A model generated the notes under the pieces. That model had not been told where the DNA came from. It saw nothing but the letters and a program-made list of their open reading frames with translations, and did no database searches. This document shows, in pieces, positions 6,619 to 57,411 of a stretch of 64,000 bases of DNA. The first letter of the stretch is position 1; the number at the start of each line of letters is the position of its first letter. A program made the translations under genes and the position numbers. Source of the DNA: Octopus vulgaris (Eukaryota). The stretch lies in assembly GCA_951406725.2 (NCBI GenBank), contig OX597823.1, positions 88,350,001-88,414,000 on the forward strand, in the 5' to 3' direction.

Positions 6619-6665
<47 letters not shown>

Positions 6666-6749: not shown

Positions 6750-6822
<73 letters not shown>

Positions 6823-16235: not shown

Positions 16236-16287
<52 letters not shown>

Positions 16288-19549: not shown

Positions 19550-19830
<281 letters not shown>

Positions 19831-22403: not shown

Positions 22404-22517
22404 ATTCGCAGGATTTAATCTATCGATTAACCACTAAACAGATTTGAGCTAAAGCAGTACATGGAAATTCGATGGAAGCGTATGATTTTTACACATATTC
22501 CATTAAATCAAGAATGG
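22404..22517 (+). pseudogene. Decayed F-type lectin/galactose-binding-like exon (RFAGFNLSINH*TDLS*...)
   Basis: Acceptor ggtttacag, phase 2. RFAGFxLxI resembles the RFxGFSLYxSN strand of molluscan lectin-EGF receptors. In-frame TAA stops. Confidence 0.45.
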
Positions 22518-25500
22518 GTGTGCTAAGACTGAATCAAAATGATAACCACATATTCATCGTGTTCATATCCAGTGTTCAGGAAAGGAAGGATACGCATTTA
22601 AGAGACAAACGATTCTAGATTTTACTTTCAAGATTGTAGGTGTCTTTTTGGAAATAGTATGAGTTATTTGTCAATTTCGTTTTTGGATTTGGTCTGTAAG
22701 ATTCCTTATGTGAGTTCGTGTGTTGAAGCATACGTTATTGGGTCTGGGGAGAGTCATTCTCTTACAGTGCCTTATAATTTAACACACTCACCAGTAAAAT
22801 TTCCACTTATTTCTTTTTTATTTTGCTAAAATTTTTAATAGTTTTAATAGCTTTGACTCAGTTCGTTCTTTACACTGCCAAATAATGATTTCCGAATTTC
22901 TTGGCGTACAAAAACATACCCTCACCATATAGCTGTTATTGTGCTTTGTAGATTGTTTTTGGTTATAAGTGTTTATTGAACTCGATATTTTAAAGGAGAT
23001 CAGTTACGAGAAATTCACTCCATGCTGTCATTTTTCAATTACATTTCGAGTAATAAATGTTATAACATATAATCCACACAGGGTGAGAGATAAAACCTAA
23101 CATATTTTAAACAGCCATGGGCGTGAGTGTCGCATGGGTAAGCAGATGGTAATGGTGCTTTTATGTAGCTACCTTTTTTCTTTTTTTCTTTGTTAAACAT
23201 CACCATGACTTCTGAACGTTTTCTGTTGAGACGTTTAACAATCATTGTTTATTTGGGTCGGTATTTAGACACAATTGGACACAAAGTTACTCAGATTACA
23301 ACAGCACAAAACTAGCCGGCTTGCCTTACCGCTTAGAGATAAAAGGAAACCATTTCAAGGTGGCTGTGATTGACAGGGACTGAAGATGGAATCCTACTGT
23401 ATGAGGAAAATAATTCAGTCATAACTACTCTACAGATGCGGATCGTGCAGGCTAAGAGGTGAAAGCTTTGTTTCCTTGAGATAACTACTGATGATATGGA
23501 AGAGATTCTGATATCCACAGAGGTTCATAAGAGGATTTTGTAATATTTCTGAGTAGCTCCAGCTGTGTGAGGCAAAAGCATCTGGGATGTTTGTTTTGCT
23601 TCGTGACCATTTCTATATGAGAACAGCTTTCAGTGTTAAAATGGAACAGAATTGAAATAAATTGCTATTGTTTACCTCTGTTATCAGAAACACACACCAT
23701 TATCATATTGTGAATATTACATGGTGATAAATTAACGAGACTAATTTATCTATGCTATGCTACTTTCCTATGATATATTAAATTTTAATTCAACTGATGT
23801 CTAATTGTTACGTCTAATCGGTCTGGTGGTTATCTAACTGCGTTGTTGTCTTATCACGAACAATATAAATTTAACGCTACTCTGAATGTGTAAGCTACTG
23901 AACACAAAGCCACTTGTATTACTTGTGAACGTAATTGAAATCAAATCTACTCCTTATATTCATACATCTTAATTTTCAAAATGCTATTGCTACAATGTCA
24001 CAAATGACTATATTTCATGCAGGCAATCCCGCTTTATTTATTTAGTAGCGCTTGGACTTGTAAAATTGCTGAGCTGAAAATATTAGTGGCTCGTCTAATA
24101 CAGATTCTTTAAAATTTGTTCACACAAATCTTTTAAATATTTATGTAGAATATTCCATTTATCATTATTAATATAATTATATCCTGCTAAGAAAAGTATA
24201 TAAAAGATTGTCAGAATACTCATCAATTGTTTATGGGCTGACGAATAGCGATTTTGGGCTTCAGTAGATAATTGCGTGTCGGAAATTCTCTCTTGAAGCA
24301 TTAGCATCAGTGATAGTATATTTAGAAAGCTTCAGAAGAAGAACATCAAAGATCACACGAGTTGTACTGATATCAAAGACGCATTTGTGCGAGGCTATTC
24401 TTCAAACTAAAGTTATAAAACCATATCTTTTGATATCGTTCATATTCTTACCATGTGCATCTGCCACCTAAATTCGTTAAGTTCATTACTGAAATCTGCA
24501 TTAGATATTGCATACATCACTGGATATAATATTAACATCAATAGGAATTATTATAATTTTCATATCGATTTTCAAATATTAAGTTTTATGATATTATTGA
24601 CTGCACAGAATGTATATCTTCTGTTTTTACGTATAGGTATATATGTGAAACATTTCAGAAAGATCTCATTTTTTAATAACTCTATTTAAACTGTCATACA
24701 GAAGTACGTGTCAACTTAATCATACACTAAGTAGCGGATAAAATGTTAATACTATACACAAGTCTTAAAATTGAAAGCTTACCCATGAATTATTGTTCAT
24801 TTATGTGTTTTTCACGCTAATGTAGACATTTATATACTCCATATGAAAGAATTGTCTAAATTCATTCGAGACGGAATTTCTTCTACTTTTAAATGGTTTT
24901 AATTTGTGGGAAATATCTGTATAAGTACGGCATGAAAATTAACTATCATATATCTATATTGATATGTTCCTGAAGTTATAAATAATTCTATATAACCAAA
25001 GGAGAAATATATTGAAAACGCTTGCTTATTTGGAAGGAAGAACATCTTGTAGCGGACGTGAATAAAATTTATATGATGTCTTAAATACGCAATACTTCGT
25101 GAATTTACTTTCCTATACAAAGACACTTTCTTACTGAAAAATTTCGTATAAGAAATACACTATATCATTATTTACTTAACATGAAATGAACTTCACTGTT
25201 TATGCTAAAAATTGCTAATCATTACACAATATATTTCGTAGAATGACTCTTTTAAATTCATATTTAACTTTCAATGCTTATGAATCACGTTTAATCCAAA
25301 TATTTGAATCCCAAATAATAATTCTTAATATCGAAACTAAATCTCATTTTCAGTAGAGATGCTGAATACGGGAAAGCATTGTTTCTTTGTCAAAACAATT
25401 AATCAGTGAGATAAAAACATAATAATTCAACTTTTGGTTTCAAATATACGTGCACGTGTGTGTGTGCTTGTATTCGTGTGTGTGTTCGTGTGCGTGCATA

Positions 25501-25876
25501 CAGATAGATAGATAGATAGATTGATGGATGGAAACATGATTCTATGCAGAGAAAAGATTGCAAGAAAAAATTTATGAAGGTTTTGTTTCACATTAAAGGC
25601 ACATTAGGATTCATTTTTATAAAATAATTCGTACACTGTTCTCGGCTTTTTATTTCTACCGATTCGTTACCATGACATCCGAATAGAATACAATATATGA
25701 GGTCAATCCCTGAAAGCGACCTCCTTCAACTTATTGTGCTTTATATCTAAGGACCTTTAATGTGAATGATTTGCAGGAATCATTAACTGTCTAAATTGTA
25801 TATATGTATGTGTGCGTGTGTGTATGCATACATATATACACACATATGCATATATATATATATATCTATATATATA

Positions 25877-25912
<36 letters not shown>

Positions 25913-26057
25913 TATATGTATATATATATAGATAGATATAGATATAAGTATATATACATACATATATATATATGTATATATATAGATATAACTATATATA
26001 CATACATATATATAGATATAAGTATATATACATACATACACACACACACATATATAT

Positions 26058-26118
<61 letters not shown>

Positions 26119-27263
26119 TAGGAGACTGTACGATTTTATCACATTACGGTGTCTAGGAGCCTGTGTTTATCTATTTGGAGAAGCATGAAACTGATTCATG
26201 CACTGATAACGACGCTGGAATTTATAAGTGGTTACAAATCTCTAAGAAATGAGATTGTTTGCTCTGCAACATTGGTATCGATAATTAAATAGCAAACTCT
26301 ATTTTGAAGACGTCATTCCTAATCTTATAAATTAATATTGATGATTGCCTGTAGCTATATTTTATGCAGTCTTTGAAGTTGGTTGATTTCTAACATTTGT
26401 CTAGCGATTTTAAAATGAAGCTATGTTGCGGATAAAAGTGGAAAAATGATGCATATTAACGTTCATTCTCTGTAATATGGTGTTGACTTAATTCCTTATA
26501 ATCCTTCATTATACGCCATATCGTCTGTGTTCAAACCACACGGAGATCGACTACATCAGAAAGCGTACAGTAACATGATTATCGTTTCACTCTATTTAAT
26601 TTCATGCATCACAGTTTTTATTTTGTATTTTTCTCCAAAAGACTGAGTTCTTGGTTTATCATTCCGTAACAAATATAACGCCAAACTAAGTGTGCTTGAA
26701 TGAATTTATTCTATCTTAATGTTGTACCAAAGTGCGAAATAAGTATTAATAAGACACACAATTATCGTGGCTACTCTACACGCAGAGTATCTCATAATTC
26801 TATAAAATATTTGTATATTAGTAATAAGGTTTGACAGGAAAAATTCCACAAAAAAGGAAGCCTAATCAAATTATTTATAACAAAACTGCGAAAATTCTGA
26901 AGAAAAAGTGTTGTAATATATGTATTACTTATATTTGAAAACGAATGTTGTTATAGATATCGAAATAAAAGGAACCAGTGACACATTTTCTGTAATTTCT
27001 AATAAATTTATATACTTATTTATTGCCAGCCGAAATAATTCTCAACTTGACATGACGGAACTAATAAAGAGAATATATTTGAATGTTAATAATCGTACAT
27101 ACATACGCCATATCCGCACAATAACTCCCACCGAAACAACTCACGCAGACCCACATGCATACACATGCATGAATACATACATGCATACATACTTACATAT
27201 ATCCATACATACATACATACATATGTGAGTATATGTGTGTATACATGCATGTATGTATGTATG

Positions 27264-27322
<59 letters not shown>

Positions 27323-28025
27323 GTGATGATACTGCGTAAACATGTACAACGTTGAATGAATATGAATATACCTATTCAGGAGCATCAGTTTCTCGAGAAC
27401 AATATATATATATACAATAATAGAAGACAGGAAGCAGTATATGAACATAATGTTTTGTACAGATGTTTCTAATAAATATTTGGAAAATTTTAAGTATTAG
27501 TCTCAAGAATTAATTATTGTATTCAAGTAAAATTGTTGGAATAGAAGCGACATCTACATGCACACAAATAAGCAGGCCATCGCTAACTTGCGTAATATAG
27601 TAGGTTATTAATATAAATAGTAGTTATGTTGTATAAATTCGAAGTAGTAACGTCCTTGTATAATATGAATTAAAATAGAATATTTATTAATTTGACATGC
27701 AATGTTGATCAATGATCTCATGAATGCATATGGAGACACAGTTTAAGAGTTTGGTTTTTAATCTTACTAATACGGGCAATAAAACACGTTTTTAAATATA
27801 TTAAATAGATTCATTATGCATGCGGGATAGCAAATTTATATCATGATATTTCGAAACATTGTTTAAAATACAATAATATTATCGGGTTTGAAGGAAAGTA
27901 ATATATCGCAATGGCCATCGTGTTGAGGCTACAGTCATGAAATGTAATAGAAACTTGGCAGAACCCTACCTTTTTCAATGTATGCGTCAATCAAAATTTG
28001 AACTCATTACTATCTATGTTTGTAG

Positions 28026-28160
28026 AATTGAGGTTCTCAAAACTGTGATAATGGATTGCTTGTCTAGAGCATTGTAGTAAATTTGTTCAAAATGTCCATG
28101 CTAGTTTCCAAACTATTATTTGCCCCGTGTTTCATGCATTATGGGAAATATAAAGCTTTC
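28026..28160 (+). pseudogene. Decayed EGF-like exon (IEV..CDNG..EHCSK / ICSKCPC across frameshifts)
   Basis: Acceptor ctatgtttgtag; Cys spacing of MEGF-type EGF repeats when frames are joined; 3' end approximate. Confidence 0.4.
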
Positions 28161-29266
28161 TCTTCATCAGTCACACGTATCTCTGCTGGCAAAGAAAATC
28201 TAGGAATATGTATGATATATGATGCATGAATGCCATGCAAATATGTATTGCATGTGATATGTAATACACATGACACGTAAAGTGTTTTAAATGTAGTGAA
28301 TGTACGTATTTGGACTGCAGATAACTACTATGATGCTGAAATACTTTTAGCTTCTGATATTCGTTTAGTAGTCACAGATAGAGTGAAATTTTCTATTAAA
28401 GTTGCGAAGATGTTTCTTAAATGGTTTCTGTCTCTAGTGGAATCAAAGTACTAGACCTAGGAACATAACATTACGTTTTACGTCGAGTTTCATCTAAACC
28501 TATAGCTATAAATCTATAATCTTGTACACCTGATAAAAATAATCCGTGTTAGTAGTGAAGATAGCGATTTGCTAAAAATAATGACTTAATTATAATGCTT
28601 AATATGTTTCCTAGGAAGTTTGAAGATATAAATCATGAAAAAATAGTTAAATATAAGCAAATCTTGCACAAATATCTCTGGTTTCATGACTTTATAATTA
28701 CAAAATAATCAGGTCTATGTTTACGAGTTGGCTATTGTAGAAAAAGTTTATACACATCTGAAATTAAAATCGTGACATTAATTTAAACAATGCCGATGTG
28801 GTATAACAATTCCAAACGAAAGAGAAAATGCCATTATAAAGGTGGATTTGAATACATAGTAAGAAAAAATACTGTAAGCCATTTTATACTGTCTCTTAAG
28901 CTTTCGATGTATTCTATTGTGAAAATAAAAAGAGTGAGAAAATAAAACAGGGTCAGAAAGGTGCATAACAACGTTGAAAAAAACGTCCAATTCGATTGCC
29001 TAGTTCCATTTTTTGTGATTAGAAGTATTTAAAGGATAGTATTTTCAAATAAGCCACCGAATCTATCCGGAAGACAATCTAAAACTATTAAGATTCAGAA
29101 TGATAAATATTTATTTATTTACATCCAAATATTTTAACTGTCTAGACGGACTAAACGACGCTATAACGAAATATTTCCGTTGAATACAGCTCATAGGCAG
29201 ATGTCTGGTTGATCTGAAATAACTATACAAATAATACAATTAGAAATATTTCTATCTATCTATCTA

Positions 29267-29312
<46 letters not shown>

Positions 29313-30570
29313 GAGAGACAAAGAGAGTGAGAGGGGGTAAGATAGGGGTATAGATAGATGCGCGTAAATATATGTGAATATATATAAACTTATAGACTTA
29401 TATATAGAGACGCAGCTTTATCTTAGTATACATTAAGACGCAAGCACATTAGGCTTAAACTATAGGAAAGACAGACAGCAAAATACATACAAACATATAG
29501 CGTTGTGGAATTTTATTGCGTTTTATAAAGTAATATTTACATTTTTTTTAGAACGATAGCCACTATTTAGTTTCATTCATGGAATTAGGAATATACTCTT
29601 CGTATGACTAATTTTGTAGCAAATGCGTTTTGGAATATTTATGAAACTCTGTTAACATATAACAGTTCCAAAGTTAATATTGTAATAGCTGATTCCATAC
29701 AATATATTATTTTTATGGTTTATATTTGAGATAAGGGCCTTATGTTGTTTCTCTCTGTACAATAAATATTTTCTTTAATCACTAATTTTTATTCAAGACA
29801 TTATTAACCTTGTTCTTTTTCGTAGCATTGACCGCTTATTGATATTATTTTTTGTGGTTTAGCTCCAGATCCTCTCACAATATTTTCAAAGACATTCCAA
29901 CATGGACCAACACACTACTTTTTAAACATAGTATATATTGTTCAACCCCAATCCAATGTTACTTTCCTTCTTTTATAATTTGTTGTTTGTTATTGTAAAT
30001 AAACTAGATTGTTATTTCCAGAACTCCTAAAAGCTACGCTCACTTTCTCTCTCTGGCTCCTTGCTAATGATGATAATAATCGTGTTGTTGAAATCAGGAT
30101 GTTTTTAATTATTGATTAACAAAACAGGTGCAAATTCAAATAATTCGAAATTAAAAAATAATTTAATTGGTTAAAAACTTCATTATTTTTTCAATACAGT
30201 AAACAATGTACATGTAATGAAAAAGTTCATCGCAGTCATCTAACCCTAGCTGCTCCATTTATACACCAGGTGAAATTATAGCTTTCTTTTAATTAAATAC
30301 AAATGCAAGAAATGTGTAAATAAATTCTGATTAATGAATTTTCATCACTCCATTGACTCTCTCATTAACAAAAGGCAACTAATCATGACTCCACTAATTG
30401 ATTTCTAAAATACAGCCCCTCTAAAATATCCCCCGATTTAATGGAAAGTCAGATACAGGGTACGTCCTAAAAGCCGCTCTTATGTTTTTCACACTCACTC
30501 TGCTCTTATTCAAGTTAACCAGATACTAAGGGTGCCTTCATGGAGCTAATGTTTCACCATTTTTTTTCAG

Positions 30571-30665
30571 GTACCATTGTTGTTATAAGTGGTGTACACC
30601 TTGCCTATCCTATCCAGAGTGGAGTTACCTCAAGTTATATAACCAGATGAGACATGGGCCCATTG
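30571..30665 (+). pseudogene. Exon-like segment (ectodomain, unassigned)
   Basis: Strong acceptor [18 protein letters not shown] and donor gtgagg; one frame open (YHCCYKWCTPCLSYPEWSYLKLYNQMRHGPI). Confidence 0.4.
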
Positions 30666-31639
30666 GTGAGGATTCCTCGATTTTGTGGATCTCACCCCCA
30701 CCTATCTGTTTTCTCCCGATGTTATATTGTGATCCAGAATGATTGGATTGTAACACTGTTTTACTGCAGGTATTTACCGAATGCAATATGATTGAAAATG
30801 AAGTTACCCTCAACATAATCTGGACTCTATGCGTAGAAAGTATTTCCAAACATATTTTCATACAAACTGAATCTTCCAAACAATCTCTACTTGAATCGCT
30901 ATTCTTTCTTTTTTTTTTAATCTTAAGTAATAAATATTTAGTGGTTTTTTTTTTTAGTTTCTTCCGCGTATATTAAGACTTTAAAACATATTAAAATTAT
31001 CAGCAGACATTAACTGCGTATCTGTGGCAGTCCTGCATTGTACTTTTAGAATAACAGAAAATTATAACTTCAAAGGATGTACAGGAAGAAAGGATACAGA
31101 TTTAAGGTTTTACAGCAATCTACAAAATAAGTCAGTCTTTATCGGCTAAAATATTTGCCAAAGTCTTTATCCAGAGCCTTAACTTGGTATTAGATACATT
31201 AAAGAAGAAAAAGTTTCGGTTTACGTCTAGGTAGATAGACATCACTTAAATAATGGCTTGTTACTTGGGACAGTGAAGGCTAATAACTTATTCATTCGGC
31301 TGTTTTGTTGCTCTCGATTTCCATTCATATTATGATATTTTAACATCGACTTATCGAGTCTAGAGAAATCAATGAGTAGTCGATACTAGCTTTTAGATTT
31401 CTACAATCGAATTTGTTAATGCAATTTACATAAATCTAATTGATGGTGAAAACAAAGCACTACATCGAACATTACAAATGTTTGGTCTGGTTAGATAGGC
31501 GATAATAATTTTTACGGAAGAAATCAAACATAATTCAAAATTTTGAGCAAGTCCCTGACAGGCTGTGATACCGACTCGTTTATATAATCATCAGATATTA
31601 TCGATATATTTCATACGTTCCTCGATAACTTTTTTACAG

Positions 31640-31870
31640 TCAGAGAAATTAATGGAGGCGAAAATACATAGTATATTACTTGCAAGACACAGGGATGAGA
31701 ATATTAACGGAGACATTCTAGCAATTAAAATAACAGCCAAATGTCCTTCAAACTACATACAACAGTCTCAGAAAGGTGGTTGACATTTGAGGAATGTACT
31801 CCTCGATATATCCAAAATCTAAAATGCTCGTGGTTGCAACAGGGTCGATCAGAGATCTGCTAACACAAGG
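31640..31870 (+). pseudogene. Decayed fibronectin type III exon
   Basis: Acceptor tttttacag and donor gtaaca. VREINGGENT*YITC then a frameshift into ENINGDILAIKITAKCPS resembles the FN3 W..P...NG.I..Y.I motif. Confidence 0.5.
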
Positions 31871-33635
31871 GTAACATGAGGATTAACAATAGAATCTAAA
31901 AATAGTGATGTAAGTGTAATGTGTTCTATATTCTATAACTAAGAGTGGTGGTCCTAAATCTAATAGGCGAACATGGGATAATTGATACTGTGTAGTGACA
32001 ACTTATTCGGAGATTGGCAGATCCTTCAAAGTCAAAGTTCCGTGCAAAGTCCTTCGATGTTTTTCCACACGTCCAGAATAAATATATAAAAAATATGTAT
32101 ATATATAGAGAGAGAGGGGGAGAGAGAGAAGAAGAAGAAGAGACAAACAGACAAAAAGATAAATGTATGCGTATATATGTATACACACACACACACACAT
32201 ATGTGAGGGAGTTATTGTGTCTCTCCCAGGTCCTTAATTGGTCAGGACTTGTTCACCTGCCTATTTGCAAAATAGAGACCTGAGACAAAGAAAGCAATAA
32301 TATAGATACCAGGCGTCGATTCCATTGAGTGCATTCTTTGAAGCAGTTTACATATGTCTGCGGACAAATCACCCACCCCAATAAATGATTAAAATTTCAA
32401 AAATATAAAAATAAAAAATATACGTATTCCTTAAGTTTCAACGACCTTCCTAGACATCACGCCGTCAAGTGATATGTATTTAATTTATTCCATAAGTTTT
32501 CAATTAGTTATCCCTTAGCCTGTATTACTCTCTTCTGGTTAATGAGTCTAAATTTTACTAAGATGAGTGACCACACGTTTTAAGAAAAGGATTGCCTTTT
32601 GGCCAGTTGCAGCATCCAATCGAATTCCATTCTAGGATATCTTTACAGCGCATATTGTGTTCTATATTTGACTTAAATGGTATATGAGAATATTAGGATT
32701 CGTCGAAAATTGCTATAAATGGAAATCTGTATCGTCTCCGCTTGTGACGTTAAACTTTATAATATTTAATACATATTCATTTAATATTGTCTTATACCTG
32801 ATAATCGTTCATATCTATGCTAAAACGAAAATACCAGCTTCTTCTTATTATATTCAAATGGAATTTTGTACCAGCTTATAAGTCGCATTCTTAACTCATT
32901 CTGTAGCGGTCTGCCGATGTGAGTTTGTCTTTCATCATTTCAGGGTCATAAAATAAGTATCAGTTAAGCACTGGGCTCGATATAATCGTCTTACCTCCTC
33001 CTCCAAACTTGCTTGCACAGTGCCAAAATTTGAAACCGTTAAAAATTCATACTGAGAGTTCAAATACTGCTAAAGTCAATTTTGCTCTTCGTTTCGGAGT
33101 CGATAAGATAAGGTACCAGTGAAATACTGGGATCAATGCCGTCGAATTTCCAGTCCCTCAATGTTGCTGCTCTTTTGCCAGAATTAAAAAAAAATATTAA
33201 TAGGCTCTCCCTTTCCTCCAAGTATTTTTGAAAGAAATACCTCGCAGTCTTTTGTTCCCATAAATATTATAAACTTGCCGGAATCTATACGAACCTAACA
33301 ACTGTACCTTATCTCTGAATTCAGTAATCGAAATACATTGAGAAGCTGTTGCTTGTATTTACAAATGGCAACGTAAGATTCTCTACAGAGTCAAATAATA
33401 TCGTAGAAATATCAGCTAACCTCTCCTCACACATACATGGTTATATGTAAGAGAAGGAGAGAGATATTGGTTAATATACTTCTGGATGCATATTATTCTG
33501 AAAATAACCCGCGGATGTTATCTTTAGATCGCATTCATCATGAGTCTACACGAGCAGAGCTGGCCTGGGGTTGAAAAATGAATAATCTCAAGATCAGTTA
33601 CAGTAATTTCTCGCATATTTACTTTTGTGTACTAA

Positions 33636-33686
33636 CTTCTGAAGAGTTGCATGAAGTCTGAAGAGATCCTACGAAACTGATTAAAG
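33636..33686 (+). ncRNA. Possible decayed hammerhead motif
   Basis: ctt-CTGAAGA-GttgcAT...ATcctAC-GAAAC-tga-TTA-aag; stems II and III are partly mismatched. Confidence 0.3.
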
Positions 33687-34181
33687 ATTTCTTCGATTTA
33701 TGAAATGGATATATGACCGACCGCATAACTGTAAACAAATATAACTTAGATTGCACGCACGTAAAAAAACTATACGGACTTTAACTTGAAGTTTGCTCAA
33801 AGAAAATAACATTAATGTATTTTGCAAGTTAATTTAATTATCTATGTTTATCTCCGGAGAAAATTGACTTAGCGTATACTGAAAGGGAATCAATATTAAA
33901 AATGTGAAAAAAATTCCTGAAATGGTTTAAGGTCATCATTCATGATATGAAATGCAAAGAATATTGAAGCTGAAAATCTTAACGAGCGTTTAATTGCTTT
34001 AAGTTAGTTATGTGTACATTGGCGTTGGTTTTATAATATAATTATCAGAAGATGCATTTACTATAAATATGTGTGTGTGAGTGTGAGTGTAAGTGTATGT
34101 GCGTGTCTGTGAGTGTGTTTGTGTGTGAATGTGTGTATGCATATATGTATACATAGCTAAATATCTATCTATGAATGCATA

Positions 34182-34227
<46 letters not shown>

Positions 34228-34494
34228 TTATCCGTAATAATGAAGGGTGAAATTAATTAATTTGGAATAATTATCAATTACACCAAGTAGTCTTCGGCAT
34301 GTAAAAGCCTCATTCGAGGAAAATTTAAGTAATACTAAGCAATAAAGGGTTTAGGTAAGGCAATGGTAAGGCAATTCGTTGCTAAACCATTTATTGCTAT
34401 ATATATATATATATATATAGATAGATAGATAGATAGATAGATATATAGATATTTATGTGTGCGTGTGTGTGTGTAGACAGACAGACAGACAGAT

Positions 34495-34539
<45 letters not shown>

Positions 34540-34940
34540 AAGATAGATAGATAGATAGATGGATGGATAGGTAAAGAGACAGTTAGACAGACAGACAGAC
34601 AGACAGACAGATAGGTAGGTAGCTTGGTAGATATATAGATATATAGATAGATAGATAAATGAATAGACAGATCGGTAGATGAATGGATAGATGGATGAAT
34701 GGATGTCATACACGTTTCAGATATTTGCTTCTGTAGAGGCCTCCTAGTCATACTGGGAAAAAAAGCACGGATAAAGAGTAGGAGAGAGGGGGAGGAATAG
34801 AGTGAAGGGAGGAAGGGAGAGAGGAGGAGAAGAGAAAGGAAGCGTAGAGAGGGAGAAGGAGAGAGAGTTGAATGAGAGACTAATAAAATGACAAGCAAAA
34901 GAAGGCCTAAAGTCTAGGACATGAGATTTTGTTTTTATAG

Positions 34941-35163
34941 ATCATATAGCACACTTCAGCTTATTAACTACGAATTGCCAGATATTCAACTAGAAAATAA
35001 AACGAGCCGCAACCACAGCAATAGATACTTTTTAATCAATAATTCTATGACATAAGGAGAAGTAATTGTGAAAGTATATAGGCAAGGTTGTCTACTTCAC
35101 ACAAACATTGTGATATATTACAATTTTATTATCTATGTATTATTAGGAATTGAAAAAAAGTCT
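34941..35163 (+). pseudogene. Decayed RPTP membrane-proximal domain exon
   Basis: Acceptor gtttttatag and donor gtatgc. Single frame SYSTLQLINYELPDIQLENKTSRNHSNRYFLINNSMT*GEVIVKVYRQGCLLHTNIVIYYNFIIYVLLGIEKKS with one TAA (35053-35055) where YG is typical (ELP...F.IGD...YG.Y.N..L...Y.IY pattern). Confidence 0.5.
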
Positions 35164-35289
35164 GTATGCAATCAATAAGGCAGATCATAGAGAAACGAAC
35201 GCGAATTAGGTTGCCATGATTTGTTAGTTTACTTTTTGTCATGTCATTTATTTAATTTTTTTTTGTTTCTTTTTAAACCCGCTTTTCAT

Positions 35290-35391
35290 ATAATGGATCA
35301 TCAATGTAATTCCAATACTGCAATATTTTATTTAAGCTCACAAATATATTGATCAATGTGAATCGAAGAAATTTACAAACTGTGGAGACTA
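35290..35391 (+). pseudogene. Possible decayed transmembrane exon
   Basis: WIINVIPIL / AIFLFKLTNILINVNRRN across a frameshift: hydrophobic run followed by basic residues; splice sites degenerate. Confidence 0.25.
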
Positions 35392-35753
35392 AAATTTAAA
35401 AAAAATAGAAAAAAAAAGAAAAAAGCATTAAAAATGATAAACACTTCAAAATACACTTGACTAACGGGTGGTACTAAAAGAGGGGTGGGTTAGAGACTAC
35501 ACCGAGACTTCCATAAGAAAACAATAGCGAAGAGGGAGAAAAAATAGTAATTTTTATTTGTGCGGTTCGCAATCTGTTCAAAACGTTTTATCTCTCTTTC
35601 CTTCCTACTTAAGCTCGATTTTCTTCACCGTCTTTAGTATGTAATGTCGCTAGCACTTCTACACTTCAACAAATTCTAATATTGATCCCATATCGATTTA
35701 TTGGTATAATAAATACGTTGTTACTGGTGTATATGCTGTACAATATATATATA

Positions 35754-35806
<53 letters not shown>

Positions 35807-36060
35807 GAATATTCATATATATGTATATATAAATGCATATATCCATATATATGTCTATATGCGAATTGATATATGTGAATATTTGGCGATAATGTGAATA
35901 TACAAATATATATATATATATAAATATGCATATATATATGTGTGTTTGTGTGTGTGTAAATATGCATATATAAATGCATATATATATGTGTGTTTGTGTG
36001 TGTGTAAATATGCATATATAAATGCATATATATATATATGTAAATATGCATATATATATA

Positions 36061-36931: not shown

Positions 36932-37286
36932 CTCTATGCGTGTATGTATGCATTAAAATAATTGCACACAGTACACATGACTTTTTGCGAAGTTTGTTCA
37001 AACTTTATTTCTTAAAACAAATCTCTCTTTCTCTCCTTCTTTCTCTCTCCCTCTCTCTCTCTCTCTCATTTTCTCCCTCTTTCTATCTCTCTCTTCCTCG
37101 TTAAATTCGTAGGTATATAGTGATATACTTTACACACAGATTAGCCAATAGGTTCGGTTGCTTGTTCAGTGTGATCGGAAGAAAATTATTAGAGATTTTC
37201 GTTAGTTAACAAACACATATAAGCTTAATCAAATCAGATTTAGAGCTGGCAAAGTAAGCTTAAAGATGCACACACGAAAACACATA

Positions 37287-38573
37287 CGAGGGGCGTTCAA
37301 TAAGTAATGCCTCTGACCCACTTGCAGTTGTTTGATCTAGCTGATCATGTGCAATTATTTATATCTCTATAGATTAAGTGGCAAATTACAACTCTGAACA
37401 AATTGTGGTTTCTGATTTACAGGTGTTTGAACTGAGTCAAGTGTGAAATGGAGCCTGTTGAGTGTCGAGCAGTGATCCGGTTTTTTGTATTTGAAAGGAC
37501 GCACACCACGGGAGACTTTTGATGAAATGAAAGTAACTTATGGTGATGATGCCCCATCATATGACCTTGTAAAACGCTGGCATCGTGAATTCAAACATGG
37601 TTGGAACTCTGTGGAAACAGCTCCCATGTCTGGTCGCCCCCCTTCTGCCATTGATGAGGCATCTGTCCGTCAAGTTCAGGCTGCCATTTTGGAAAATCGA
37701 CGCATAATTATTCGCCAAATAGCCCATGAGGTCAAGTTTAGTACCGGGTCTGTGGAAACTATCATTCATGACCATTTGCATGTGCAAAAGGTGTCTGCTA
37801 GATGGATTCCCAGGTTGCTCACACCTTTCCAGAAGCAAGAACGCGTCGAGTGCTCGAGGATGAATTTGGAGATGTGCCAAGAAGATGAGTCAAAATCTTT
37901 CAAAAGACTGATTACACAGGATGAAACCTGGGTCCATCACTATGATCCAGTGACCAAAGCCCAGTCAATGCAGTGGAAGCTCCGTGACTCACCTCCTCCA
38001 AAGAAGGCAAGGGTGCAGCCCTCCGCTGGCAAGGTCCTGCTCACAGTCTTCTGGGACCAGGACGGAGTAGTGATCACAGATTTCCTGGCAAAGGGTGCCA
38101 CAATTACAGGAGCCTATTATGCTTCACTTTTGAGGAAATTAAGAGAAGCTATCAAAATCAAGAGGCGGGGCAAGATCAGCAAAGGCATCCTCCTCCTGCA
38201 GGACAACGCTCCGGACTACAACTCGCGTGTCGCCAGACCAGAAGCACAGGCGTGCGGCTATGAACTCCTCCCCCATCCCCCTACTCTCCTGACCTTGCCC
38301 CCTCTAATTTTCACCTCTTCCTAGCCATGAAGTTGTTTTTGAAAGGAAAGCGTTTCTCAGATGATGCAGCCTTGATTTCTGAAGTCACGTCGTGGTTGGA
38401 GGACCAAGCTGGGGTCTTCTACAAAAACGGTCTCCAGAGTTGCATCAAACGATGGGAGAAATGTGTAACTCTGAGCGGTTCCTATGTAGAAAAAGACTAA
38501 TAACTGTGCCAAGGTTCGTTGCTCTACTGCTATGGGAAGTGGGTCAGGGGCATTACTTATTGAACGCCCCTCG
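37287..38573 (+). mobile_element. Full-length mariner (Tc1/mariner) DNA transposon, 1287 bp
   Basis: TIRs cgaggggcgttcaataagtaatgcc(t/c)ctgacccactt of about 37 bp with 1 mismatch; TA at 37285-86 and 38574-75. Confidence 0.97.
37448..38500 (+). pseudogene. Mariner transposase, frameshifted
   Basis: MEPVECRAVIRF (+1 T in a poly-T near 37481) ... WIPRLL ... ITQDETW ... LQDNAP ... (-1 C near 38280) YSPDLAPSNF ... RWEKCVTLSGSYVEKD*. The third catalytic D reads N. Confidence 0.95.
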
Positions 38574-39569
38574 TACACACACATACATATATATATGTGT
38601 GTGTGTGTAAATAAATATATGTATAATCTATCATATACGTACATATATGAATATAAACATATCTTATCCCTATATATATATATAATAGGTGTTTCCTAAC
38701 CACATAATTGCAGATTCAGTCCAACCGCATGGCACCTTGGGTAAGTGCCTTCACCTATAGCCGCTATAATCCCACTAAACGCTATAATCCCACTAATATC
38801 CGATAAGATTTAGCTTTGAAAACGGTGGAGACCGTTTCATATAAAACTGAAATTACGAGATTCAATTTGGGCCCTCGCGAAAGATCAAGCGCCAAAGCAC
38901 TATAATATAATCTGTGCACTGAGGGAATTCAAATTGTCACATATGTCTTTGAAACGTGTCTTGCTGTTTCTGTTCCGTTCGAGTTCTCTTCTTGAATTAG
39001 AATGTTAGCCATAAACCTGAAAATTCGACATGCCTTTAAAATCGGTTGCGTCTTGAGACTACAAACGCTAGCACTCTTGAACAAAATTTTCCTGCTTGGT
39101 GATCGTCTAACGTGCAATAGTTTACTTGAGTTGTTCCTTCTGTCACTCTGATCAAATATTGTATATTAAGTATATTAAGCTTACTAATTAAATTTCTCGA
39201 AAATGTAAATGTGTTTCATTAATATGCGTTTTATGATGTCATTGATCACAAAAGATGTAATTTATGCATAGCAGCATAATTCCGGATGTAAGTATCGCAT
39301 CCTTTTACTTTACTTAGATTATCACAAATTGCATTAACGTGTTTTAGATTAATTCTTATCAAAATGATGGTCGATGATAGCAAAAAAGAATAAACATATG
39401 ATAACATGTATGTTGCATTAATCTTCCAAGAATCTGAAATTATTATTTGCCTCATGATTAGAATGACACGTGAAAACTTTTTAACTGAGGAAATTCATCT
39501 ATGAGCTTAATGAATTCTAAAATTTGGATAGATGTTAGGAATCTAATCTGTGTTACGCTCGAAAGAATT

Positions 39570-42950: not shown

Positions 42951-44263
42951 AGGCCTATCAAACTAACTGTTCGATGAATTGATGATAGGCTGGGGGGAAA
43001 ATTAATATAATATTAATCTCGCAATAATATCTGAATTGCAATTCATCCAGTAACGGATTTGTCTTTCATCTTTCCACTGAAACATAAACACATGATGCAA
43101 TATACTACACATTCTCGACTTCATATGTTACTCATGTGTCTAGTCAAATATGCCATTATTAGAACTTAATCCCTCTTTCATAAGATCATGCGAAACTTAT
43201 GCGCTTGTGTCTCAAAGCAATTTGAAACGTTTGCTTTCATCTTTTTAAGCATTAGTGAATCCTACATATCAGAGTAAATATTCAAATGGGAACGAATAAA
43301 GGCTATTTGTCCTTTAATTCTGTTAGAGCTACGTATGGGAACCACGTAAAGAAATGAAACATTAGTGAGAAATGAGAAGCAATAAAAATGAAATTGGTGT
43401 TTATGTGAAGATACTTAGAAGCACGTCACCGAAGAAGGGAAAATGTGTTAATTCATTGGCCATCCGATGTAGATTCTTCAGAAAATATAACTACGCATTT
43501 CATTTCTCCAATCTATCAATAATTCCCCAGTATATGTAAAAATCATAGACTTATAATGGTCGTAATGTTAAGGAGAGCCACAGTTTCTCTGACAATTTCG
43601 TATCCTGTGCTGGAATATACAGTAGAAAAAAAATCCACATTCGTATGTAATTTTATTCCAGGCATACATATACACATTTCGAAATTTGTCCGCCTGTTCA
43701 CTAAGAGGATTCCGCCATTTCGAGGCACTTGATTTTCTGGTGTCTCTAACTCCCAGCTTATGTCATAATCAATTACTAGACATTCAAAAGAATGTATTCA
43801 CCATATTCACCCGTTCTTGTCAAAAGATAGGAATGTTCCTGCTTTCTATTTTCTCTGGAGATTCCGGGTTCAGATATAAATTGGAATAGCGTCAATAGAT
43901 ATAAATTAGAATAGCATTCCATATTCACCATATTGATTCTGGGCACACAACCATCATTGTTGTTTCAAAAAGTAATTCCACTGATGTCGGCTTTGCCTTT
44001 TGTCGTTTCGGGGACGATAAATAAGTGCCTGTTGAACACGGGAATCGAGGTAATCGACTTGCTTAACCCTCCAAAATTGCTGACCTCCCACCATAATTTA
44101 GAAATCAATATTTCTCTGAAGATTTAAAGCTCTCTCGTAAGTAAATCAGACTCCGTGAACTTTGTTTTGCCTTAACAAATATGTTTTATGAATGTTCCAT
44201 TTGTGCAGTCATAGCTCCGTGGTAAAGAAATTCGTTTTGTAACCACACAGGACTGGATCCAGT

Positions 44264-46282: not shown

Positions 46283-46480
46283 TTGGCGAGCTAGCAGAAA
46301 CTTACAACGCCTGATACCTTAGCGACATTTTATTCGTCTTAACGTTCTAAGTTCAAACTCCACCGATGTCGACTTTGTCTCTCATCCTTTCGGAGGTCGA
46401 TCAAATAAGTACCAGTTGAACACTGGGGTCGATGAAATCAACTTACAACATTGTTGAACTTGTGCCAAAATTTGAAACAC
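46283..46480 (+). mobile_element. SINE family A, near full length
   Basis: ggcgagctagcagaa...aagttcaaactcc...catcctttcggaggtcgat..aagtaccagttgaacactggggtcgat...gtgccaaaatttgaaac. Confidence 0.85.
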
Positions 46481-46499: not shown

Positions 46500-46539
<40 letters not shown>

Positions 46540-46876
46540 GAGTGAGAGGGCCGTGTATGCTATCAAAGTGACACTGGGGTAAAAATATACGAAGCCTGGT
46601 ATACTCATCATGACTACCCGTCTGATAAGAGTACACTAAACACATGCATCAGAACCATATGTGCGCGACATGGTGATCTCATATCAAGATAAACACCACA
46701 TGACCTTGCAGGTGGGGCCCAGTTAGAATTTACTTCTGGTCGAGTAGCCCGTCCCGCTCAAAAGGTCCCTGAATAAGGGTTGTTTAAGGAAGTCAGACGA
46801 AACACCCATGTTTCCAGAGGTGAATTATTCAAACCGTAAAAAACACCTCTCAACACATGGCTATGATGCTCCCACA
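46540..46876 (-). mobile_element. Non-coding about 335-bp (TAA)n-targeted element, copy 1
   Basis: Bounded by (tta)n; diverged duplicate at 46901-47227. Confidence 0.7.
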
Positions 46877-46900
46877 TTTATTATTATTATTATTATTATT

Positions 46901-47225
46901 GAGTGAGAGGGCAGTGCATGCCATCAAAATGACACAGGGGTAAAATATACGAAGCCCAATATACCCATCATGACTACCCGTCTGATAAAGGTACACCAGG
47001 CACATGCATCACAACAATATGTGCGCGACATGGTGATCTCATATCAAGATAAACAGCACATGACCTTGCAGATGGGGCCCAGTTAGAATTTTCTTCAGGT
47101 TGAGTAGCCCATCCCGCTCAAAAGGTCTCTGAATAAGGGTTGTTTAAGGATGTTGAAAGAACCACCCATGTTTCCAGAGGTGAATTATTCAAACCCCAAA
47201 GAATCCCTCTCAACACATGGCTATG

Positions 47226-47270: not shown

Positions 47271-47450
47271 GAGGTGGCTAGCTGATATGTTGACGGTTAG
47301 CACGCCGGACAAAATGACGAGCATCATTTGGTTCGTCTTTACGTTCTATGTTCAATCTCCGCCGAACTCGACTTTGCCCTTCATCTCTTCGAAGTCGATA
47401 AATTAAGTGACAGTTTAGATCTGGGGGCGATGTAATCCACTAAAGCCCCC
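47271..47450 (+). mobile_element. SINE family A, degraded copy
   Basis: gttagcacgccggacaaaatg...gactttgcccttcatc. Confidence 0.75.
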
Positions 47451-47479: not shown

Positions 47480-49106
<1,627 letters not shown>

Positions 49107-51999: not shown

Positions 52000-52499
52000 C
52001 TGAACGATAGTATCTCAGCACCTCTCTCTCTCACTCACCACACTCACCAAATTATCATCATCACCACCTCTGCCACCGACATCTTCTTCAACCTCAAATA
52101 CTAAAAATAAACCCCACATCGCCACCTCAGTCCTACTGTAATATAAATAATCTTAAAACATTTATGAAGCAGAATGTGTCCCCCACGACACTAACAAGAA
52201 ACCCCCAAATATACCAATATTCACTGCGTTACAGGCTCTGTACACGTAGTGACTGCATTTCCAAACATCTACCTGACAGTAGATGCGCATTACAAGCAAA
52301 CACTACCAGCCCAGACCAAAGCACACAATGACATCAACATCAATACCGCCAAATAGTGAACTTAACGTTAAAACACACATAATACGGAATCACTGAATGC
52401 CATCCTATGCTATTACCCCAGTGCACCAACTCCCCACATTGCAGTCACTAACACAAAATCAGAAAAAAAAACCGCAAGAATCAAAACCCGCCACTACGC

Positions 52500-54250
52500 T
52501 AGCCTCTACATTACTACTCAATGCATTACTACTCAATGCAGTCCCTCCATGAATGCACAAAAATGGAAGATCCAATTCATTGAGGATTGGGTCGGTGACC
52601 ATCCACACCACATCCCTTTCTTCATTCTTACCGAGACCCACCTTGACAACTTTCACTTGGAAGCCGGAGTGAATGTGAGGAATTTCACAACCATCCGCAC
52701 AGATCGAGTCGACAGAAGGAAGGATAGAACTGCCATTTTCCTGTATGATTCCTTTTCGGCAGATGGAAATATGACATTCCCCAATAGCTACTGTGAATCG
52801 GTCACCGTGCACAACAAAACCAATGACCTGATAGTAGTTGGGCTGTACAGGCCACTTCAAACACGGCGCTTTAACGAATGCCTCAACAACGTTTAGTGCT
52901 TTATTCAACAGTGCATTTCTAATAACATAATTTTGATGGGAGATTTTAATCTACCCTGTGTTGATTTGTCTAGAAACAGTTTGAAACCAGGCACTTCCAC
53001 CTCAACTGCTGACAAAGAAGTAGAGTCACTTCTTGATTTTATGAATGAGTTTTTCTTGTCTCATTCACCTCTCATATCATCAAGGTATTTGAGAGAGTGG
53101 TGAGATCAAGAATAACCCTCTTTCTTGGAAGCAACAAAATATTGGAACTTAACCAACATGGGTTCTGTAATGAAAGGAATTGCCTAACGTAGATCATGCT
53201 TCAACTTTTGACATTTTGAGAGCTTTGAGAGAGGGCTCGAATACTGATGTCATCTTCCTTGATTTCAGCAAGGCCTTTGACAGGGTTGATCATAAGATTC
53301 TTTTCAGAAACCTATCAAACATTGGTGCCTCTTGGAAGTTACTAGAATGGATCAAATGACAGACAGTCCCCAACACGTTGATGTCGAAGGAGTAAAATCA
53401 AGCCCAGCCAAAGTCAGTAGTGGTGTTCCACAAGGTACTGTGTTGGGCCCACTTCTTTTCATCATCTTCATCAATGACACTACTGACAGCATCAAGTACG
53501 GAAACATGAGAATCTTTGCAGATGATTCCAAGATCCAGAAAGTCATCACTGAAGTGGGTGACTGGACATGCCTTCAGTCAGATCTACTGGCTGTCATCCA
53601 ATGGCCGGCAAAGAATAATATGCTGCTGAACGAGGACAGATCTGAGTTAATCCACTTCGGAAAAGAGAATACCGTGAAACCCCCATACTCCCTTCCTTCA
53701 GGTGAAACTATCATGGCATCCAACAAAATTAGAGACTTAGAAGTAACTGTGGACCACAACATAAGCTGAGCCGCTCATATAAACAGCTAAGTTGACATGG
53801 CCCGCAGAATGTGTTCCTGGATTCTCAGAACATTCCAATCGAGAGATATCCCGAACATTATCCTTCTTTTCTCCTCTTTTCCTTGACCCTACCTTGAACA
53901 CTGTTGTCCACTGTGGTCTCCCCACACGAAGCAAAGTCTTATGAAAGTTGAAACACCTCAAATGTCGATTACGATGGATGCATGAGAGGCTTTGACTATT
54001 GGGGTCGACTAGAAAAGCTCAGTCTTTATTCTCTCCAAAGCTGCCGTGTGCGCTACGTCATCTGCCTGATGTGGAAAATATTCCATAAACATTGCGCAAA
54101 TGTTGTTGGCATCGTCTTTAAGATACACCCAAGACTTGGGCCCCGTGCTATCCGTCCACAAGAAAAATCAATACGGCACAATTATTTCCCCTCAGTATGC
54201 CCCGTTCTATTTAACATTACGCCAAATCACATTAAAGCAGAAAGACACGT
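52500..54250 (+). mobile_element. CR1-group LINE, decayed and internally deleted (APE + RT remnants)
   Basis: FILTETHL and LMGDFNLP (endonuclease); DVIFLDFSKAFDRVDH, SGVPQGTVLGPLLFIIFIND and IFADDSKI (RT); DYWGRLEKLSLYSLQ. Possible ORF1 remnant upstream to about 52.1 kb. Confidence 0.92.
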
Positions 54251-54674
54251 CATAAATTTGATGGTGGTGGTAGTGGTGGTGGTGATGGTTTTGGTGGTGG
54301 TGGTGTTTGGGGTGTTGTGGTGGTGGTGGTGGTGGTAATAACGGTGCTGATAATGGTGATGCGATAACGATGATGCCGGTGCTGTTGCTGATGCTGGGGT
54401 TGATATTGATACTGGTGTTGGTGTTACTGCTGCCTTCGGCTGCTGTTCAGCTCCGCTGCGAGTTCTGATAAAACCAAACGATCAAAGGCGATAGCACTTT
54501 CATTGTCCCTTTTTTTTTCTTTTTATTTATACTCTACAGTATTTATTGGATTTATCCAAAGTAAAATTGCTTTTTTTTTTTCCTTTTATATATTAAAGCG
54601 TAATTTACGAGAAATTAGCTCTTCTTACTAACAGTACAAGTGAACTTCTAGGATTTTTTTTCCATATATTTCAG

Positions 54675-56068: not shown

Positions 56069-56125
<57 letters not shown>

Positions 56126-56133
<8 letters not shown>

Positions 56134-56434
56134 ATATTTCGGAATGGTCACTTTGCTAGTTTAGCCAAAAAAAACACAAGCACTATATATTTGGTGTTAC
56201 TTTGCTTCAGTGTTATTTTTTTTACATTAATCTTAATCTTATTTCGGCCAGAGTTCTTTCGTCACACTCATGTAACCTCATCAGTGGTCCTGATGACGAA
56301 AGACCTCTGGCCGAAATAAGATTAAGATTAATGTAAAAAATAAATAACACTGAAGCAAAGTAACACCACATATATAGTGCGTGTGTTTTTATTGGCTAAA
56401 CTGGCAAAATGACCATTCCGAAATATAACAATAT
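56126..56434. mobile_element. Penelope-like inverted pLTR foldback (about 140-bp arms, 29-nt loop) between (TA)n tracts
   Basis: 56126-56264 is the near reverse complement of 56294-56434; contains the hammerhead; a homologous copy lies at about 19.55-19.72 kb. Confidence 0.75.
56246..56290 (-). ncRNA. Minimal type I hammerhead ribozyme, core intact
   Basis: Minus strand reads GGACCA-CUGAUGA-G-GUUACA-UGAG-UGUGAC-GAAA-G-AA-CUC-UGGCC: stem I CCA/UGG, 6-bp stem II, 2-bp stem III, CUC triplet, and one extra G after A9. Confidence 0.7.
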
Positions 56435-56491
56435 CTGTTTCAACACACGACTTCGCATAAAAAATCTTGCACAACAAATATATAAACGTAT

Positions 56492-56526
<35 letters not shown>

Positions 56527-57411
56527 ATTATAGTGAAAGGGAGGGAAATATAAAAATATATTTAGAGGCGGCAGAAGATATATAAATGGAGGGAAAGATA
56601 TATATATTTGTATATTTTTGATGTAAATTGTCGATGATTGCATCTGAATGTATCTGGTTACTTAAGCTAACAGTGTGATTAGACTACAAAATGTTGCTCT
56701 TTCTGAGGCATATATCGCAGAAACACCTCTCTAACATCACTGTTTATCGCTGTTCTATGCGGAACATTATTATACACGTGTTTGATATGTGTTCGAGTGA
56801 CTCGTATTAGAAACATGCCTGGAATATGCGTTTCTTCTTTTCTATTTATATTTTCTGTTTTGTTGGAAAGCATAATGTTTCACAATACCGTTTTTGTACG
56901 AGAGCACAATGTTCTCTCAGCCCATTAATATTTTTGGACACTGCAAGTCTAGTAGTTTTATCCTTGTTTCAATATATTATCAGTGATTCATTTTTCCCTT
57001 TTGCTTTCTCCTAAAAATCAAACACAACACAAATAAAATCAGAGGATATAATCACCAGTCATCAACGGAAAGTAGACGCGGAAGCTAATGCGATGTTGTA
57101 AACACATCAGACACTATATCTATTAAGAATAAATAAAACATATAAAATGTATTACATACCCCAAATTCATTTTAGTTAGAGTATAGATGAAAGAGTTACA
57201 AAAATCCTGTACTACAGAACAACATAAAATATAATTACACTTTCTCATATGCTAGCACGAATAATTTACTGTAAAATTTTAAGAATAAATAACTAATAAA
57301 TATCAAAACGCCATCATGAAATGCCGCGAATATATTAGACATAAGGTAAAAGATACACAAATTTTGTTATTTCGAACTTGACAATACAAAATATTACTCA
57401 TCCTCGTACAT

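What the first reader, a model, noticed from the sequence alone, without database searches (positions are those of the whole stretch)
56126..56434. 309-bp foldback carrying an apparently intact minimal hammerhead ribozyme
Seen: about 140-bp inverted arms with a 29-nt loop. The minus strand at 56246-56290 has CUGAUGA, a 6-bp stem II, GAAA, a 2-bp stem III, CUC and stem I CCA/UGG. Established: Penelope-like pLTRs carry minimal type I hammerheads that often cleave as dimers, and PLE insertions often have inverted pLTRs. Inference: half of the ribozyme is sequestered in the long hairpin, so ribozyme folding and dsRNA formation are mutually exclusive. The duplex would also be an ADAR or Dicer substrate. 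The + strand junction recreates CTGATGA-C-GAAA flanked by ggtc/gacc.
Basis: partly seen in the sequence, partly recalled or inferred. Interest (0 to 1): 0.7.

Follow-up and report, generated by a model that had tools for sequence, protein, structure and literature searches.

The report
Inverted Penelope-like retroelement ends with hammerhead
This hairpin is two broken-off ends of a very common jumping gene pasted head-to-head into a TA repeat; one end still carries the small self-cutting RNA motif such elements are known to have, so it looks like an ordinary insertion scar, not a switch.

Summary
Observation confirmed: arms 56126-56264 and 56294-56434 (133 of 141 columns match, 29-nt loop) and a minus-strand minimal type I hammerhead at 56290-56246. 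Laying four public runs shows a very abundant repeat family whose copies normally continue past 56291 with other sequence. So the foldback is two differently 5'-truncated copies joined head-to-head, one of at least 16 such junctions listed. The right copy carries a family-derived 40-54 nt tail that the left lacks, and both ends sit in (TA)n. A single-arm copy lies at 19561-19720. Inverted truncated copy, one-sided tail, (TA)n target and a minimal hammerhead with an extra base before stem II are all published hallmarks of Penelope-like elements. No ORF could be linked, so the clade is open. Sequestration is real in the fold (about 31 kcal/mol penalty) but nothing suggests it is a selected switch; cleavage, transcription and editing are untested. 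The plus-strand CTGATGA-C-GAAA is probably the family's own core with stem II skipped, not a ribozyme. The scan's notes held no similar finding. Verdict: new member of a known kind, low interest.

The parts
56074..56129 (.). Left (TA)n microsatellite, the presumed target; its last 4 nt overlap the arm end
   Evidence: sequence
56126..56291 (-). Left copy: 166-nt 5'-truncated 3' end (pLTR-like) of the repeat family, sense on the minus strand, no tail
   Evidence: family contigs leave the reference at 56291 in all 4 runs laid (loose ends in 20, 41, 34 and 3 contigs; table 7)
56246..56290 (-). Minimal type I hammerhead motif: core 56284-56278, extra G 56277, 6-bp stem II, GAAA 56260-56257, 2-bp stem III with 2-nt loop, C17 at 56251, stem I of 3 bp plus bulge plus 2 bp
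   Evidence: 2 of 31 listed variant rows fall here, one being C17 to U17 (table 3)
56278..56301 (+). Head-to-head junction: 7-bp hairpin TCATCAG/CTGATGA around a 5-nt loop, then CGAAA; reads as the family's own core with the 16-nt stem II stretch skipped between two TGA triplets; not a ribozyme
   Evidence: the mechanism is inference
56294..56434 (+). Right copy: 141-nt, more strongly 5'-truncated copy, holding only the 3' half of the hammerhead
   Evidence: contigs laid from 56294 onward (table 8)
56435..56488 (+). Optional 3' tail on the right copy only; family-derived at least to about 56475, exact end not fixed
   Evidence: summed depth 631,261 at 56446-56465 against 53.8 in the flank (X1); pieces end at 56454-56475; other contigs run into TA-rich letters at 56434; 56476-56542 was skipped as repeat
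56489..56526 (.). Right (TA)n microsatellite
   Evidence: sequence
19550..19720 (+). Second, older single-arm copy of the same family between TA runs; 130 of 166 columns match; hammerhead decayed (G8 to A, changed cleavage triplet and stem I)

Best explanation
The locus is one insertion event of an abundant Penelope-like retroelement family (or a non-autonomous derivative that uses its 3' end) into a (TA)n tract of an animal genome. Shown: two copies of the element's 3' end, truncated at different 5' points, are joined head-to-head; one has the optional tail; both ends abut (TA)n; the family carries a minimal hammerhead about 120 nt from its main 3' end. Inferred: the element's endonuclease nicked both strands of the TA tract; reverse transcription started at two internal sites about 40-54 nt apart (giving a tail on one side only); both cDNAs stopped near the structured hammerhead; one jumped across stem II between two TGA triplets; the two 3' ends were joined by a 2-nt match. 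The ribozyme is a passenger here: in the intact element it probably cuts weakly, as a dimer or with protein help, after C17. In this locus it cannot fold once the hairpin forms, and the hairpin is a by-product with no selected role.
For: High-copy family in three coded organisms: summed depth over the hammerhead bins is about 7,000-8,300 (X1), 5,200-10,800 (X6) and 19,000-36,000 (X9) times the unique flank, 170-1,200 after a worst-case division by 31 for contig overlap; 9,408, 5,157 and 2,862 contigs were laid (the tool warns that this is no copy number). Family continues beyond 56291 with other letters (table 7). 10 of the 15 joints shown (55 found) and 6 more among the 12 rows of table 5c (19 found) run from the left arm to the right arm at different places, at depth 21-111 against flank depths of 54 and 88. 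One-sided tail and TA-joined ends. Single-arm copy at 19561-19720. Published hallmarks match: inverted 5'-truncated copy, 30-40 bp tail at one end, (TA)n bias (PMC8557442; PMC3846280); tail equals the stretch between two RT start sites and both strands are cut and extended (PMC11167929); extra base between 9 and 10.1, G10.1-C11.1, long helix II, short helix I, and dual motifs 100-700 bp apart on opposite strands (PMC4209133).
Against: No RT or GIY-YIG ORF is linked to the family: searches with the peptide after the ATG at 56409 gave 14 weak hits, of which the 3 I fetched were unrelated repeat proteins, and none of 8 candidates. Loop III is not palindromic, so the dimer stem is poor (+1.4 kcal/mol against -5.0 and -8.3 for palindromic controls). 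Rfam gives no significant hammerhead match. The joints have short sides (20-37 nt) at 80% likeness, which the tool flags as often coming from repeats. No listed contig bridges this locus's own junction (32 of 17,652 pieces shown). A tail of up to 54 nt is longer than the published 30-40 bp. Foldback self-priming (PMC3846280) explains the 7-bp junction hairpin equally well but not the one-sided tail.
Confidence: 0.8

Rival explanations
1. The family is a short non-autonomous element (SINE-like or retrozyme-like) that carries a hammerhead and borrows a PLE's enzymes, with no ORF of its own; the locus is an inverted insertion of it.
For: No ORF found; very high abundance; animal retrozymes are proposed to derive from pLTRs (bioRxiv 10.64898/2026.07.22.740005, part 1 of 5).
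Against: Retrozymes are head-to-tail tandem repeats with canonical hammerheads (PMC7229834, passages); both window loci are not tandem and the motif has the minimal PLE shape. The family sequence upstream of 56291 was seen only for about 30 nt, so an ORF further up is untested. This reading changes the family label, not the account of the hairpin.
Confidence: 0.1
2. The 309-bp palindrome is itself a mobile unit (MITE-like, TA target) or the founder of a foldback subfamily.
For: Near-perfect terminal inverted repeats with TA on both sides; the depth of this exact junction could not be read.
Against: Summed depth falls about tenfold in the junction bin (37,116 against 376,111 and 693,320 beside it in X1), family contigs leave at 56291, the right end has a family tail that the left lacks, and the other window copy has one arm.
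Confidence: 0.05
3. The foldback is a retained regulatory device in which hairpin formation switches the ribozyme off, or a selected source of dsRNA for editing or silencing.
For: The two folds do exclude each other; the core at this locus equals the family majority; inverted Penelope copies yield siRNAs in flies (PMC3681739).
Against: A 31 kcal/mol gap is not a switchable balance, and the complementary arm is made before the ribozyme in a minus-strand transcript; junction positions vary among loci; arms carry private changes at 56169, 56179, 56217 and 56369, as expected from decay; no host exon was recognised nearby.
Confidence: 0.04
4. Assembly artefact (chimeric or inverted read).
For: No listed contig bridges the junction (table 8).
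Against: The arms differ at 6 sites and one gap, with alleles that are family majority on one arm or the other, and only one arm has the tail.
Confidence: 0.02

Closest known systems
Minimal type I hammerheads of metazoan Penelope-like elements (Cervera and de la Pena 2014, PMC4209133; parts 1-2 of 4 read)
   Same: Core, unpaired base between 9 and 10.1, G10.1-C11.1, long helix II, short helix I, rudimentary helix III, thousands of dispersed truncated copies, some paired on opposite strands.
   Different: Loop III (AA) is not self-complementary; stem I has a bulge; this sequence was not found in the supplements searched; activity untested.
Inverted pLTR insertions with optional tail in EN+ PLEs (Adineta vaga Penelope, PMC3846280, passages; Naiad and others, PMC8557442, passages; Anolis Poseidon, PMC11167929, parts 1-2 of 4)
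   Same: Head-to-head inverted 5'-truncated copy, small palindrome at the junction, tail at one end only, AT-rich target.
   Different: No ORF between the repeats; tail may reach 54 nt; stem II appears skipped at the junction.
Hydra-clade PLEs (PMC8557442 section 11, supplement parts 2 and 53 of 59), including Hydra-1_Obim
   Same: (TA)n target, hammerhead near the 3' end, often an extra base before stem II; a Hydra-like ORF fragment of another family lies in the same window.
   Different: The listed Hydra hammerheads have 4-5 bp in stem III counting A15.1, this one 2; sequence differs from Hydra-1_Obim; no protein to test the clade motifs.
Non-LTR retrozymes (PMC7229834, passages; bioRxiv 2026.07.22.740005, part 1 of 5)
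   Same: Short, AT-rich, high-copy animal repeat with a type I hammerhead.
   Different: Not a head-to-tail tandem; minimal rather than canonical ribozyme; inverted arrangement cannot yield a monomer circle.

Membership tests
Metazoan PLE minimal hammerhead | Core CUGANGA ... GAAA ... UH | tested here: met
   3 descriptor hits in 300 simulated windows
Metazoan PLE minimal hammerhead | Unpaired base between 9 and 10.1; G10.1-C11.1; helix II of 6-8 bp | tested here: met
   extra G 56277, 6-bp stem II; same in copy 2
Metazoan PLE minimal hammerhead | Short helix I (4-5 bp; 2 bp in D. virilis) | tested here: met
   3 bp, bulged A, 2 bp
Metazoan PLE minimal hammerhead | Palindromic 15.2-16.2 and loop 3 for dimer pairing (a trend in the paper, not part of its descriptor) | tested here: inconclusive
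   G15.2-C16.2 pair, but loop AA gives two A.A mismatches in a dimer; published Hydra motifs also list non-palindromic 2-nt loops
Metazoan PLE minimal hammerhead | Family-wide conservation and covariation | tested here: inconclusive
   no core variant at 5% or more except C17 to U17 (contigs only); one one-sided stem II change in 2 copies; no compensatory pair seen
Metazoan PLE minimal hammerhead | Self-cleavage as dimer or with protein help | not testable with these tools
   contigs cannot show RNA ends
Rfam hammerhead families | Score above gathering threshold | tested here: not met
   Hammerhead_3 12.5 bits against 48.5; no Hammerhead_1 row among 31 matches
Penelope-like elements (EN+) | ORF with telomerase-like RT and GIY-YIG endonuclease | tested here: inconclusive
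   absent from both window copies (truncated); no linked protein found; upstream family sequence not available, no genome held
Penelope-like elements (EN+) | 5'-truncated copies sharing 3' ends, with inverted head-to-head partner | tested here: met
Penelope-like elements (EN+) | Optional 30-40 bp tail at one end | tested here: met
   family-derived tail from 56435 to at least 56475 on one arm; other copies end at 56434
Penelope-like elements (EN+) | Insertion in AT-rich or (TA)n target | tested here: met
   2 of 2 window loci; TA-rich loose ends at 56434 in 46 and 29 contigs
Hydra clade | RWK and DKT motifs, no CCHH in the endonuclease | not testable with these tools
   no ORF for this family
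Hydra clade | Canonical hammerhead with extended stem III | tested here: not met
   2-bp stem III here against longer ones in the table
Non-LTR retrozyme | Head-to-tail tandem of 150-450 bp units | tested here: not met
   neither window locus is tandem; other loci of the family not examined
MITE (DNA transposon) | Whole palindrome is the repeated unit with matched ends | tested here: not met
   depth drop and loose ends at the junction, one-sided tail, single-arm copy

The most novel reading that the evidence does not exclude
This family is a natural record of how Penelope-like elements make inverted insertions: hundreds to thousands of short head-to-head junctions, in which a tail on one arm plus a jump over the ribozyme's stem II would show two separately primed cDNAs joined by microhomology, with the hammerhead structure itself setting where reverse transcription stalls. 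Its dimer-incompetent loop III would further mean that the ribozyme is kept for protein-assisted cutting or as a structure, not for dimer cleavage. Two searches for a twin-priming account of PLE inversions or a hammerhead in octopus repeats returned no paper that says this by title or abstract start.
Probability: 0.25. Interest if true: 0.5.

Novelty: new member of a known kind. Interest (0 to 1): 0.22.

Why it matters
As a single locus it matters little: it is an insertion scar of a kind described since 2013-2014. Its use is as a pointer to an abundant hammerhead-bearing repeat family that I did not find in the papers and supplements searched, and whose many inverted junctions could test how PLE inversions form and whether they feed dsRNA pathways. 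It also warns that such foldbacks can be misfiled as MITEs or miRNA hairpins (weak miRNA matches).

Tried and rejected
No whole genome is held, so copy number and consensus come only from contigs of public runs. A stem II motif pattern found 0 matches in metagenome, genome and viral contigs; blastn against phages found none. Run search: 24 runs listed, 20 hold the stretch or part, in 4 coded organisms; no RNA holder listed on record. I laid 4 of the 24. The one run guessed to be RNA (X15) holds family contigs but nothing on the unique flank; this is no evidence on expression. ORF start at ATG 56409: two common variants downstream are synonymous third positions (56420, 56426), but protein searches gave nothing real, so it stays an unsupported lead. 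The antisense frame as a predicted protein: no candidates. Plus-strand junction as a second ribozyme: rejected, no stem I or II. Rfam scan of the whole window: 348 matches, the 150 shown were chance hairpin or microsatellite hits below gathering. My first label of the ORF at 47618-47953 as Naiad was dropped after (RWK motif, homologues with DKT). A resemblance of the 3' hairpin to Hydra-clade ends was only eyeballed and not tested. Lunse et al. on dimer cleavage (PMC5785218) is not held; I saw only its title in a reference list. Exact-string searches of two supplements found no family sequence; line breaks can hide matches, and repeat libraries deposited elsewhere were not visible. Earlier scan notes: one unrelated phage note and two blanks.

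Full report
Setting. The window is AT-rich animal DNA (GC 19-42% in 2-kb bins) crowded with (TA)n tracts and transposon debris: a mariner transposase at 37476-38324 and a reverse transcriptase fragment at 53296-53769 pass Pfam cut-offs (2 of 12 ORFs scanned). It resembles octopus DNA, but that is my recall and no call names the host. No whole genome is held.

Observation. The foldback is real. The arms 56126-56264 and 56294-56434 match at 133 of 141 columns, with 6 mismatches and a 2-nt gap, and enclose 29 nt. The minus strand folds at -209.1 kcal/mol, z -29.4. The minus strand from 56290 to 56246 has every core base of a type I hammerhead, a 6-bp stem II closed by G10.1-C11.1, an extra G between A9 and G10.1, a 2-bp stem III with a 2-nt loop, C17 at 56251 and a weak stem I. 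A descriptor written for this shape hits only this site in the window and 3 times in 300 simulated windows. Rfam does not recognise it: Hammerhead_3 scores 12.5 bits against a gathering score of 48.5, and the 45-mer alone is no more stable than shuffles.

It is a repeat family, and the hairpin is not its unit. A second copy lies at 19561-19720: one arm only, 130 of 166 columns matching, ending in (TA)n at the same point, with a decayed core. I laid 4 of 24 listed runs on 56126-56725 at 80% likeness; all are contigs. In the three DNA-type runs, from three coded organisms, 9,408, 5,157 and 2,862 contigs were laid. Summed depth over the hammerhead bins is 5,000-36,000 times the unique flank, or 170-1,200 times after a worst-case correction for contig overlap. 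The tool says this is no copy number, so I read it only as hundreds to tens of thousands of copies. In all four runs contigs leave the reference at 56291 with a shared different sequence, so the family normally continues upstream of the ribozyme, and depth drops about tenfold in the junction bin. Ten of the 15 joints shown (55 found) and six more in table 5c join the left arm to the right arm at other places, each at roughly single-locus depth (21-111 against 54 and 88). Each is weak alone (sides 20-37 nt), but together they show that head-to-head insertion recurs with variable breakpoints; in one (56288 to about 56370, X6) the whole ribozyme would lie outside the duplex. No listed piece bridges this locus's own junction (32 of 17,652 shown).

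Ends. The left arm runs straight into (TA)n. The right arm goes on for 54 nt before its (TA)n, and that stretch is family sequence: depth 631,261 at 56446-56465 in X1, pieces ending at 56454-56475, while 46 and 29 contigs in X1 and X9 pass from 56434 into TA-rich letters. This is the optional tail of Penelope-like elements, found at one end of an insertion (PMC8557442 passages; PMC3846280 passages) and explained by two internal start sites of reverse transcription with both target strands cut and extended (PMC11167929, parts 1-2 of 4).

Ribozyme in the family. Of 31 variant rows at 5% or more, 2 fall in 56246-56291: C17 to U17 (18%, 10%, 7% of depth), which keeps a cleavable triplet by the established NUH rule, and one stem I change (6% in X1 only). 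So this locus carries the family's majority core. That is mild support for conservation, not covariation; the only stem II change seen is U.G to C-G in copy 2. The extra base, G10.1-C11.1, long helix II and short helix I are the listed traits of PLE minimal hammerheads, which cut poorly even as dimers, and pairs on opposite strands 100-700 bp apart were already noted (PMC4209133, parts 1-2 of 4). Against easy dimer activity, the stem III word is not a palindrome (+1.4 kcal/mol). The Anolis PLE hammerhead needs the element's protein and is dispensable for insertion in vitro.

Junction. After the left copy ends in CT (56290-56291), the next five bases complete a 7-bp hairpin with the antisense core, then the sequence resumes at C11.1. 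The simplest reading is that the right copy begins at the core CTGATGA, shares 2 nt with the left copy, and lost the 16-nt stem II stretch by a jump between two TGA triplets. The alternative is truncation at 56294 plus two filler bases that match by chance (1 in 16). Either way the plus-strand motif has no stem I or II and is not a ribozyme. Two separately primed cDNAs explain the one-sided tail; foldback self-priming, proposed in PMC3846280, explains the small hairpin but not the tail. This part is inference.

Switch or scar. Forcing the hammerhead fold costs about 31 kcal/mol in the foldback and about 3 in a single arm, and in a minus-strand transcript the blocking arm is made first. The arms carry private changes (56169, 56179, 56217 left; 56369 right), as expected of decay. 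Nothing here shows transcription; siRNAs from inverted Penelope copies are known in flies (PMC3681739 passages), so dsRNA processing would be plausible and not new.

Clade. Unresolved. The peptide after ATG 56409 found no true relative. Hydra-clade elements share the (TA)n target and a 3' hammerhead (PMC8557442 section 11 and supplement parts 2 and 53), and a Hydra-like ORF fragment of another family sits at 47618-47953 (15 homologues of 136 candidates, 48% identity to one), but their stem III is longer.

Literature. Eight searches and exact-string searches of two supplements did not show this family. Penelope-like elements are reported as 6.83% of the Octopus vulgaris genome in 190 families (PMC13282606 supplement row; passages), so it may well sit in a deposited library I could not see. 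Also seen: PMC6765202, PMC7229834 and PMC8967140 as passages, bioRxiv 2026.07.22.740005 part 1 of 5.

Verdict. Observation confirmed, interpretation partly supported. An inverted PLE-type insertion with the family's minimal hammerhead: a new member of a known kind, interest 0.22.

Noticed in passing
window 47618-48202 (-): N-terminal 112 aa of a Hydra-like PLE ORF (RWK motif; full-length homologues of about 710 aa with DKT), preceded by its own near-perfect foldback (73-bp arms 48055-48127 and 48130-48202, 97%, 2-nt loop), the whole set between (TA)n tracts. A second PLE family with a similar inverted layout.
   Followed up: partly
window 56340-56382: Family contigs skip 38 nt here (depth 114 in X1, 277 in X6; table 5), close to a predicted small hairpin in the 3' arm; may be another jump over structure.
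   Followed up: no
window 56386-56445: Highest family depth (2.4-2.5 million in X1) and many loose ends before 56406-56409, suggesting many very short copies of the last 30-50 nt.
   Followed up: no
window 37285-38609: Mariner element: transposase ORF 37476-38324 (PF01359, E 2.4e-23) with 39-bp inverted ends at 37285-37323 and 38537-38575, and a small palindrome at 38574-38609.
   Followed up: partly
window 52372-54338: Fragments of a LINE-like element; RVT_1 hit at 53296-53769 (E 1.8e-7).
   Followed up: no
window 7952-8055 and 8378-8481: 104-bp inverted repeats at 92% identity, 320 bp apart, MITE-like.
   Followed up: no
window 46539-46835 and 46900-47195: Direct repeat of about 297 bp at 90% identity next to (AAT)n runs.
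   Followed up: no
window 11986-12134, 13205-13358, 15842-16377, 32914-33037, 43974-44060, 46318-46478, 47296-47402: A dispersed SINE-like repeat in several diverged copies.
   Followed up: no
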